Positions 12,395 to 48,530 of a stretch of 64,000 nt of DNA are shown piece by piece. The position numbers were made by a program, and so were the translations under genes. The DNA lies in contig OX597815.1 of NCBI GenBank assembly GCA_951406725.2, positions 11,408,001-11,472,000 on the forward strand. The letters run 5' to 3'. The stretch comes from Octopus vulgaris. Lineage: Eukaryota. Every line of letters starts with the position of its first letter. Within the stretch, counting starts at the first letter, position 1. The notes beneath the pieces are model-generated. The model had not been told where the DNA came from. It searched no databases and saw only the letters and a program-made list of their open reading frames with translations.

Positions 12395-14425
<2,031 letters not shown>

Positions 14426-46399: not shown

Positions 46400-47600
46400 C
46401 TTCTCCTGTATCCAAAGTCTTTATTGTAGTTCACCATTTTAGACTTTTGAGACCCTTTTGACTGCACACAATTAAAACACCGTAATACCCTCGTATAATC
46501 TGCTGTATTAACTGTTATTGCATCTTCCCACGTGTTTATCTCGTTGCAGACGTCTTTGTTTAAACCGAACGTATAACACTACGTATTTTGTTTTTTCACA
46601 GGAGGGGAGGGGAAGTTTTGGGGCTCCTGTGTCTTTGTGTCGGTGGGGTGTGGGGCGGGTTGGTGTCTGTAGGGGAGGATGGGACAAAGTGGGTGTAGGT
46701 GGGTGTTGGGTGGGTGTGAGATGTTGGTCGACATTCACAGGGTGTACGTTTTTCCTCTTTTTTCTTTTCCCTTCCGACCGTTTCCCAAATAATTACCTTC
46801 CTTTTTTGCTTCTTCATCCTCAGCACTTGAGTTTTCTTTTGTTGGTGCTGGAGGTGCGACTTTCTCCCTGCTACGGCTTTTTCGTGGGGATTTTGGGCGG
46901 TGGAGGACAATCCGCTCTAATGTGGTCTTTTAGGCGACACTTGTAGCAACGCTGGGTCATGCCATCCTCAGGTCCACCGGGTTCGCCTGGATAATCATAT
47001 CCAGGTTCTGCCCTTGCCAATTCTTATGAGCTGTTCTTGTAGCTTGAAGGACCATTATCTTATCTTCATTGCCCAGCAGTATGGCAGTTACTCATCAGTG
47101 TATGTCACTCTTTGGTGGTACATCTTCTGCCCTAACCCTGGAGGCGTTGTCGAGTGTAACCTGGCAGTAGCTACCTCCCAGAAGCGCACCTCCACGGTTC
47201 CTAATTCCCTTCCTCTGGCATGGTAGGAAACTCTTGTCAGATTGGTTTCAAGGCCTTTTCTACTTGCGTGGTCATCATTATTTTGATTTTCTTTGTTTTT
47301 ATCATAGTTTTCTCCCTGGTAGTTTTCAAAATTCCTTGGGGAGGGGACACCTTTACGTCGCACCACTCCCTGCAAAGCAGTCTTATATTTACTAAGTTCT
47401 GATAGTTTGTCTTCGTCGGTGTAACTGTTGGCGGCAGCCGCAAAATTTCTTTCCTTCACCTGGTCCTCCAATTACTTCGACAGACCTCAATATTTCCTAA
47501 TCAGAAGACGTAAGCTGCGGGGAGGTGAGGCTTTCGTACTTCATCGTTAATACCTGTGCTACCCCCTTCTTCGATGGGGAAAAGCTCTAACAGACTGCCG
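46400..47600 (-). mobile_element. Decayed retroelement ORF1/gag-like region with a CCHC zinc knuckle (Tx1/L1-like)
   Basis: Minus strand 46948-46907 encodes CYKCRLKDHIRADC; upstream ORF 47471-47088; several stops and frameshifts. Confidence 0.65.
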
Positions 47601-47734
47601 TAAGGCAGTAAAGCAAGTGTAACAAAGTGTTTAAAAAACACGAAACAATTTTAACAATAAACGATTCAACAATATAACACTCACGTACGTCAATGCTGTA
47701 GATAGGACTGGCTTATAAAAACAATTTACAGCAG

Positions 47735-48059
47735 TTTCGGAGATGTACTTGCATAGCGAGTGACTTGATCTGAGATCGTGTGCTGGAACGAAAACAATTG
47801 CAGCGTGGAAGGTGTTTATAAGCCATTTAAGAAACACACAAAACCGTTAGATTCACTTCAACATCTAAATTTAATTTGTCAAAATATTTTCGTCGCTTTG
47901 AGACCGCGACCTGTTCACTGACCACGAAGTTTTGTCAGTGAACAGGTCGCGGTCTCAAAACGACGAAAATATTTTGACAAATTAAATTTAAATGTTGAAG
48001 TGAATCTAACGGTTTTGTGTGTTTCTTAAATGGCTTATAAACACCTTCCACGCTGCAAA
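47735..48059. mobile_element. Palindromic Penelope-like non-autonomous element (family H3)
   Basis: Inverted arms 47798-47922 and 47934-48058; left arm has a ~60 bp extension; 9 bp TSD ttacagcag (47726-47734, 48060-48068). Confidence 0.8.
47931..47981 (+). ncRNA. Putative hammerhead ribozyme with G3:C8 core (family H3); mirror copy at 47875-47922 on the minus strand
   Basis: UUUGUCA-GUGAACA-G-GUCGC-loop-(G/A)CGAC-GAAA-AUAUU-U-UGACAAA. Confidence 0.65.
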
Positions 48060-48114
48060 TTACAGCAGGTTTTATAGATAAGAAAAGAACCAATCAGAAT
48101 TAACCATCATACAC

Positions 48115-48530
48115 TTATTTCTTTATTTCCCACAAGGGGATAAACACAGAGAGGACAAACAAGGACAGACAAACGGATTAAGTCGATTATATCGACCCCA
48201 GTGCGTAACTGGTACTTGTTTAATCGACCCCGAAAGGATGAAAGGCAAAGTCGACTTCGGCGGAATTTGAACACAGAACGTAGTGGCAGACAAAATACCT
48301 ATTTCTTTTTTACCCACAAGGGGCTAAACACAAAGGGAACAAACAAGGACAGAACAACGGATTATGTCCATAATATCGACCCCAGTGCGTAACGGTTTCT
48401 TAATTTATCGACCCCGAAAGATGAAAGGCAAAGTCGACATCGGCGGAATTTGAACTCAGAACGTAACGGCAGACGAAATACGACTACGCATTTCGCCCGG
48501 CGTGCTAACGTTTCTGCCAGCTCGCCGCCT
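48115..48530 (-). mobile_element. SINE family B, tandem dimer
   Basis: Junction gacaaaatacctatttc near 48298; TSD accatcatacact. Confidence 0.88.

What the first reader, a model, noticed from the sequence alone, without database searches (positions are those of the whole stretch)
47735..48059. Palindromic element with twin hammerheads using a swapped G3:C8 catalytic core
Seen: 125 bp near-perfect inverted arms, an 11 nt spacer, a one-sided extension and a 9 bp TSD (ttacagcag). Next to the centre each arm reads stem I - GUGAACA - G - GUCGC/GCGAC - GAAA - palindromic AAUAUU - U - stem I'. Known: C3 and G8 of CUGANGA form a tertiary pair, so GUGANCA is the compensatory swap, and standard CUGANGA searches would miss it. 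Inference: a second PLE-type family with a variant ribozyme. The UUU cleavage triplet is atypical and may be weak. A fragment of the same family lies at 14250-14298.
Basis: partly seen in the sequence, partly recalled or inferred. Interest (0 to 1): 0.75.

Follow-up and report, generated by a model that had tools for sequence, protein, structure and literature searches.

The report
Swapped-core hammerhead in Penelope element ends
This palindrome is a head-to-head pair of end-pieces from an abundant Penelope-type jumping gene; each piece carries a hammerhead RNA motif in which two paired core letters have traded places, a likely working but untested natural variant.

Summary
The 125-bp inverted arms, 9-bp target duplication and GUGAACA motif are real. 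The element is not a stand-alone palindrome. It is two 5'-truncated pseudo-LTR copies of a Penelope-like retroelement joined head to head; the one-sided extension is the PLE tail (start of the ORF). [quoted passage not shown] G3:C8 is the family state (6459 of 7054 exact-context hits). Related families carry C3:G8 or U3:A8 in the same motif, and 9 of 9 hand-picked representatives pair 3 with 8, which supports a hammerhead fold under selection. Cleavage is untested. The twin motifs are not a functional pair: either strand carries one sense copy, predicted to be buried in a 125-bp hairpin, and each copy has a flaw. The architecture is published, as are natural U3:A8 and the partly active laboratory C3G/G8C mutant. 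I found no natural G3:C8 in the papers I could read; three key papers were not held. The scan reported this family before at four other places in this genome, and similar swaps in other genomes. Verdict: new variant of a known kind.

The parts
47726..47734 (.). Left target-site duplication (9 bp)
47735..47922 (-). 5'-truncated pLTR copy with the long end (hammerhead, ORF start, tail)
   Evidence: 91% identical over 185 nt to the 3' pLTR end of full-length copy L172
47735..47797 (-). PLE tail (the one-sided extension); codons from the N-terminus of the ORF
   Evidence: continues into the RT ORF in L171 and L172; 3' ends of copies are bimodal
47737..47826 (-). First 30 codons of the PLE ORF (ATG at 47826-47824)
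   Evidence: the same ATG opens the long ORF in L171 and L172
47878..47922 (-). Hammerhead motif, left copy: G3 47918, C8 47913, 5-bp stem II, stem I cut to 4 bp, predicted cleavage after 47882
47923..48059 (+). 5'-truncated pLTR copy with the short end (includes the 11-nt 'spacer')
47931..47981 (+). Hammerhead motif, right copy: stem I 47931-37/47975-81, core G3 47938 to A9 47944 (C8 47943), extra G 47945, stem II 47946-50/47960-64 (mismatch at 47960), G12-A14 47965-67, palindromic stem III 47968-73, U17 47974
48030..48059 (+). ORF start codon and first codons in the short-end copy
48060..48068 (.). Right target-site duplication (9 bp)
14250..14299 (+). Short-end 3' fragment of the same family inside (TA)n; no hammerhead

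Best explanation
This is a dead head-to-head insertion of two truncated pseudo-LTR copies of an endonuclease-bearing Penelope-like retroelement, and the parent's pseudo-LTR carries a minimal type I hammerhead motif with a family-wide G3:C8 pair that likely self-cleaves weakly, probably as a dimer or with protein help. Shown: family, parent, architecture, fixed G3:C8, and Watson-Crick 3:8 pairs of three kinds across related families. Inferred: the element's RT/GIY-YIG protein starts cDNA at two internal sites just after the start codon (short and long ends), as reported for an anole PLE; copies mostly run to a likely capped 5' end about 22 nt upstream of the core; priming on both target strands would give one long and one short arm. 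The motif would act in the parent's transcript; in this insertion it is predicted to be locked in the hairpin.
For: Full-length copies with 1118-bp, 98.4% direct repeats around an ORF (L172). A 1025-aa open frame with C-terminal GIY-YIG above Pfam's cut-off (L176). The model's top structural matches are telomerase RTs. The same core is in L171, L172, L173, L176 and L255. G3:C8 in 6459 of 7054 context matches and 84 of 95 aligned copies; no other letter reached 3% at positions 3 or 8 in DNA runs of four organism labels. Families B and D have C3:G8, family C U3:A8, metagenome relatives C:G, U:A and C:G; 9 of 9 chosen rows pair. 47 of 104 loci are inverted pairs and 44 of 49 pair rows are long plus short. 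Same architecture in PMC3846280 and PMC8557442; two RT start sites and partial rescue by C3G/G8C in PMC11167929.
Against: No cleavage data. Most copies begin upstream of the core, so most templates were uncleaved; only 5 of 358 starts fall on the predicted cleavage product, all at microhomology or deletion junctions, and other positions have 4-6. Folding predicts a G3.U17 wobble extending stem I (probability 0.66-0.8), and the stem III duplex is only -0.2 kcal/mol; cofolding did not return the dimer hammerhead. Published PLE minimal hammerheads cleave poorly, and hammerhead mutants still insert in vitro. The nine rows were picked by me, are related, and six of nine metagenome loci gave no motif at the expected place. 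Family B has lost A9, so selection on the core is not absolute. Pfam found no RT family in the ORF.
Confidence: 0.62

Rival explanations
1. Same PLE origin, but the motif is a catalytically dead or non-catalytic hammerhead descendant, kept as a folded signal (for example for RT binding) or by inertia.
For: Templates mostly uncleaved; predicted G3.U17 trap; A9C in family B; hammerhead mutants do not impair insertion in vitro and no reads end at the cleavage site in the anole PLE.
Against: The 3:8 pair is a tertiary contact of the catalytic fold. Three different Watson-Crick pairs and no mismatch among family representatives, with U4, G5, A6, G10.1-C11.1 and GAA retained, is hard to explain without selection on that fold.
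Confidence: 0.3
2. The palindromic twin-ribozyme unit is itself a replicating non-autonomous element whose two hammerheads work together.
For: 27 sampled loci hold both cores head to head; one inverted insertion recurs six times with the same junction.
Against: Junctions and arm lengths differ from locus to locus; the cores are on opposite strands and the antisense arm precedes the sense arm on either strand, giving a hairpin of about -225 kcal/mol; family C forms the same fold-backs; the six recurrent cases share flanks and look like passive duplication.
Confidence: 0.04
3. A MITE of a DNA transposon with a chance hammerhead-like motif.
For: Long inverted arms and a target duplication.
Against: Most loci have one arm only (57 of 104); the sequence is the terminal repeat and ORF start of an RT element; chance rate of the motif is 0.04 per 64 kb.
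Confidence: 0.01

Closest known systems
Minimal type I hammerheads in pLTRs of metazoan PLEs (Cervera and de la Pena 2014, PMC4209133; read parts 1-2 of the text and part 2 of supplement file 2)
   Same: Position in the pLTR, extra nucleotide between 9 and 10.1, G10.1-C11.1, palindromic short stem III, U17; natural covariation at 3:8 (U3-A8) is described there; the Crassostrea row has a UUU triplet.
   Different: G3:C8 instead of C3:G8 or U3:A8; no row I saw in that alignment has it. Stem I is longer (7 bp).
EN+ Penelope-like elements with inverted pLTR and tail (Arkhipova et al. 2013, PMC3846280, passages; Craig et al. 2021, PMC8557442, introduction, passages, supplement parts 2, 57, 58)
   Same: Head-to-head inverted pLTR, tail on one end, 9-bp duplication, pLTR holding the first codons, C-terminal GIY-YIG, cysteine-rich linker of Neptune/Nematis type, (TA)n targets.
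   Different: Tail of about 56 nt rather than 30-40. By eye the short linker looks more like Nematis than Neptune; no tree with named references was built.
Anolis Poseidon PAc (Frangieh et al. 2024, PMC11167929; read parts 1-2)
   Same: Two internal RT start sites near the ORF start that define the tail; hammerhead beside the start codon; the engineered C3G/G8C double mutant partly restores cleavage.
   Different: There the swap is a laboratory mutant; here it is the natural state of thousands of copies. Different clade; here the hammerhead lies wholly upstream of the ATG.
Natural hammerhead core variants (Perreault et al. 2011, PMC3088659; read section 8 and passages)
   Same: Compensatory change at 3:8 seen in nature (U3-A8).
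   Different: G3-C8 is not named in the section read; its Figure 5 and supplements were not seen.

Membership tests
EN+ Penelope-like element | Single ORF with telomerase-like RT and C-terminal GIY-YIG endonuclease | tested here: met
   1025-aa frame, PF01541 E 1.8e-5 above cut-off; top Foldseek hits are TERTs; Pfam gave no RT family hit
EN+ Penelope-like element | Pseudo-LTR direct repeats holding the ORF start | tested here: met
   L172: 1118 bp at 98.4%; ATG inside the repeat
EN+ Penelope-like element | Inverted 5'-truncated copy and tail on one end | tested here: met
   47 of 104 loci inverted; 44 of 49 pair rows long plus short; tail about 56 nt
EN+ Penelope-like element | Insertion bias to (TA)n | tested here: met
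   55 of 104 3' ends followed by four or more TA units; this window's copy is an exception
EN+ Penelope-like element | Retained spliceosomal intron in the pLTR | tested here: inconclusive
   Branch-point-like and pyrimidine-AG motif upstream of the hammerhead (210 exact hits); no spliced form shown
Neptune or Nematis clade | Zn-finger-like linker between RT and EN; RT tree placement with named members | tested here: inconclusive
   Cysteine-rich linker present, compared by eye with the published alignment; no named references in my tree
Minimal type I hammerhead | U4 G5 A6 A9, G12 A13 A14, A15.1-U16.1, G10.1-C11.1, stems I and II | tested here: met
Minimal type I hammerhead | C3 and G8 identity (consensus CUGANGA); Rfam model match | tested here: not met
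   G3 and C8; no hammerhead family at E up to 1 in the window, which also missed the two canonical motifs
Minimal type I hammerhead | Watson-Crick pair between 3 and 8 | tested here: met
   9 of 9 chosen rows pair: CG 5, GC 2, UA 2; by sequence only
Minimal type I hammerhead | NUH cleavage triplet and palindromic stem III | tested here: met
   UUU and AAUAUU; UUU precedent
Minimal type I hammerhead | Self-cleavage after position 17 | not testable with these tools
   Genomic 5' ends give no clear signal
MITE | Fixed terminal inverted repeats shared with a DNA transposase element | tested here: not met
   Variable arms, many single copies, RT parent
Non-LTR retrozyme | Tandem head-to-tail hammerhead repeats | tested here: not met
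   This insertion is head to head; a tandem array of the same family exists elsewhere (L184)

The most novel reading that the evidence does not exclude
An active natural G3:C8 hammerhead, not reported before, that completes a three-way covariation (C:G, U:A, G:C) within one clade of Penelope-like elements. It would show that PLE hammerhead catalysis is under selection in vivo and that CUGANGA-based surveys miss thousands of ribozymes per genome. The same insertions would also record priming on both target strands from two separate RNA templates.
Probability: 0.4. Interest if true: 0.62.

Novelty: new variant of a known kind. Interest (0 to 1): 0.45.

Why it matters
Whether hammerheads in Penelope-like elements do anything in vivo is open: they cleave poorly in vitro and are dispensable for insertion in the one reconstituted system. 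A natural swap of a tertiary pair needs two transversions, and seeing three paired states in sister families of one genome is comparative evidence that the catalytic fold is selected. It gives a ready test set (families A, B, C, D) with near-intact parents, and shows that consensus searches undercount these ribozymes. The palindrome itself is ordinary PLE insertion anatomy.

Tried and rejected
Rfam scan: no hammerhead hit, only microsatellite-driven miRNA matches. A 3.45-kb spaced pair on C2 looked like a full element but is a segmental duplication. A G3.G8 intermediate subfamily: G at 8 is about tenfold more common than C at 3, but those copies are spread over several sub-lineages, are no more diverged (5.8% vs 5.2%, p 0.53), and match a general sense-strand C>G excess of 2.1% vs 0.3% G>C outside the core; rejected. 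Other G3:C8 families in this genome: two patterns gave 0 hits and 3 hits (control 16); other contexts were not searched. Genomic footprint of cleavage: inconclusive. Expression: no RNA holder listed; four runs guessed to be RNA were contigs only and show neither ends, strand nor splicing. Stem I columns in the automatic alignment were out of register (16.7% paired), so only the 3:8 and stem II rows are used. An IQ-TREE run timed out; FastTree was used. PDB sequence search gave nothing; viral contigs gave 0 hits; the left flank ORFs had no Pfam match. Novelty searches: searches found no natural G3:C8 report. Lunse 2017, Przybilski and Hammann 2007 and Hammann 2012 were not held, supplement file 1 of PMC4209133 was not searchable, and bioRxiv supplements are closed; any of these could hold a prior report.

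Full report
1. Observation. The arms (47798-47922, 47934-48058; 125 nt, 98%), the 11-nt centre and the 9-bp duplication are as described. The core motif occurs once per arm and nowhere else in the window. A descriptor with any base at 3 and 8, G10.1-C11.1, GAAA, palindromic stem III, UH and at least 4 bp in stems I and II gives four hits in the window and 0.04 per shuffled window. The right copy has a C.A mismatch in stem II; the left copy's stem I is cut to 4 bp. The fragment at 14250-14299 is the short 3' end without hammerhead. Rfam finds no hammerhead here, nor the two canonical motifs in the window.

2. Family. The right arm has 1637 first-look candidates in the 2.8-Gb genome, of which 40 were scored at 98-100%. 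A 34-mer near the ATG has 3148 exact hits. Read in sense, the unit is a short leader, the hammerhead, about 55 nt, an ATG, and then one of two 3' ends about 56 nt apart. Of 104 loci, 47 hold a head-to-head pair with variable junctions, and 44 of 49 pair rows combine one long and one short end; six rows are one insertion duplicated with its flanks. The window element is such a pair: a long-end copy on the minus strand (47735-47922) and a short-end copy on the plus strand (47923-48059). 55 of 104 ends run into (TA)n.

3. Parent. Following the upstream sequence led to a decayed copy with RT and GIY-YIG motifs directly behind the hammerhead (L069) and then to near-intact copies. L172 has 1118-bp direct repeats at 98.4% around the ORF. 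L176 has a 1025-aa open frame with GIY-YIG at residues 915-1005. Its model (mean pLDDT 83) matches telomerase RTs best. The extension is the ORF's N-terminus. The closest named protein is from Octopus vulgaris and is 97% identical to sister family B, so the host is likely an octopus. This anatomy is published for PLEs: inverted pLTR, tail on one end, 9-bp duplication, first codons in the pLTR (PMC3846280 passages; PMC8557442 passages). A cysteine-rich linker places it with Neptune or Nematis; by eye closer to Nematis, not tested on a tree with named members.

4. G3:C8 within the family. With the flanking 17 bases fixed, 6459 sites have G3:C8, 386 have G3 with another base at 8, and 209 lack G3. 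Among the first 100 of the 209, none is C3:G8. In 95 aligned copies 84 are G:C. Subfamilies with different loop II sequences, including the near-intact copies, share the core. DNA runs under four organism labels show no other letter at 3% or more at either position. Deviant copies look like decay: the excess of G at 8 equals the background C>G rate. Independent variation among dead copies therefore neither supports nor refutes the pair.

5. Covariation between families. Family B (58% identical over the RT-EN region) has C3:G8; family C (49-54%) has U3:A8; an older family D with the same stem I as ours has C3:G8, though no ORF was linked to it. Three of nine metagenome relatives show a motif behind the ORF: C:G, U:A, C:G; the other six were cut short or gave none at that place. 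On the RT tree family A is sister to B plus C with support 1.00 (FastTree), so G:C is most simply derived. In nine rows that I chose, one or two per family plus the canonical window motif, 3 and 8 always pair (CG 5, GC 2, UA 2), G10.1-C11.1 is invariant and three stem II pairs change on both sides. These rows are few, related and hand-picked, so this is support, not a statistic. Family B's A9C shows that not every core letter is held.

6. Mechanism. Shown: sections 1-5. Inferred from PMC11167929 (parts 1-2 read): the protein nicks AT-rich DNA on both strands and starts cDNA at two internal sites, giving short and long ends. Copies mostly reach a common 5' end upstream of the core (71 of 160 starts in the first four bases; the sample partly selects for core-bearing copies), often with an extra G, which suggests capped, uncleaved templates. 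The long-plus-short rule and arms from different subfamilies fit one priming event per strand. The hammerhead would work in the parent's transcript, likely weakly: the double mutant only partly rescues cleavage in the anole element, minimal PLE motifs need dimers, and G3 is predicted to wobble with U17. A related paper notes, as data not shown, that G3-C8 works worse with C17 (PMC3884650 passages), which may be why U17 is tolerated. In this insertion either transcript holds one sense motif after its complement, inside a hairpin of about -225 kcal/mol, so it is predicted silent. Only 5 of 358 copy starts sit on the predicted cleavage product, all at ambiguous junctions.

7. What is known. Natural U3:A8 is published (PMC3088659 section 8; PMC4209133), as are the extra nucleotide, palindromic stem III and a UUU triplet. 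No G3:C8 appears in the alignment rows I saw or the hammerhead table of PMC8557442, and six searches found no natural report. Three central papers were not held. I also opened passages of PMC6765202, PMC8495972, PMC6155905, PMC11014351, PMC13282606 and bioRxiv 10.64898/2026.07.22.740005; none names it. Earlier notes of this scan describe the same family at four other places in this genome and similar swaps in four notes from other genomes; these are unchecked AI notes read after my own analysis, and only the same-genome claims were tested here.

8. Verdict. A real, family-fixed G3:C8 variant of the PLE minimal hammerhead, in an ordinary inverted pLTR insertion. PLE membership is about 0.97 likely; that the motif descends from a selected hammerhead fold, about 0.9; that it measurably cleaves, about 0.6. 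Novelty: new variant of a known kind. Interest 0.45.

Noticed in passing
L377, L385 (also L110, L120): The two arms of single inverted insertions carry loop II versions of different subfamilies (2 of 27 loci with both cores; two more by BLAST). This points to two RNA templates in one event, or to later conversion, rather than fold-back on one template. The window's arms also differ at 47960, where A is a recurring minor variant (6 of 83).
   Followed up: partly
family copies, just upstream of window 47923: 5' ends cluster at AGATGCAG, and 16 of 25 copies ending there have a G before it where the parent has C or T (some rows are paralogues). This may be a copied cap. The same AG also closes a branch-point and pyrimidine motif that looks like a 3' splice site.
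   Followed up: partly
48 family copies: Strand-biased substitution: C>G 2.1% against G>C 0.3% on the sense strand; possibly an RT error signature.
   Followed up: no
window 45167 (+) and 57387 (-): Canonical C3:G8 minimal hammerheads of another repeat family, missed by Rfam.
   Followed up: no
L223, L227, L229 and others (family B): Young sister PLE family with open frames up to 1312 aa whose hammerhead has C at position 9 and a non-palindromic stem III.
   Followed up: partly
L221, L231, L285-L314 (family C): Sister family with U3:A8, a UUU triplet and a 3-bp stem I; 1857 exact hits; forms the same fold-back insertions.
   Followed up: partly
L184:4611-5962: Head-to-tail array of at least seven roughly 170-190 bp units of the G3:C8 pLTR end, retrozyme-like.
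   Followed up: no
L269: A U3:A8 motif with the stem I of families A and D and the stem III of families B and D; perhaps a further family.
   Followed up: no
window 46500-47720 (-): The insertion sits just upstream of ORF-like sequence that resembles a decayed retroelement 5' end; no Pfam match. A 13 of 14 match to the element's own ATG region lies 12 bp left of the target site (47709-47722), probably chance.
   Followed up: partly
window 48113-48481: Two tandem copies, 184 bp apart, of an abundant SINE-like repeat.
   Followed up: no
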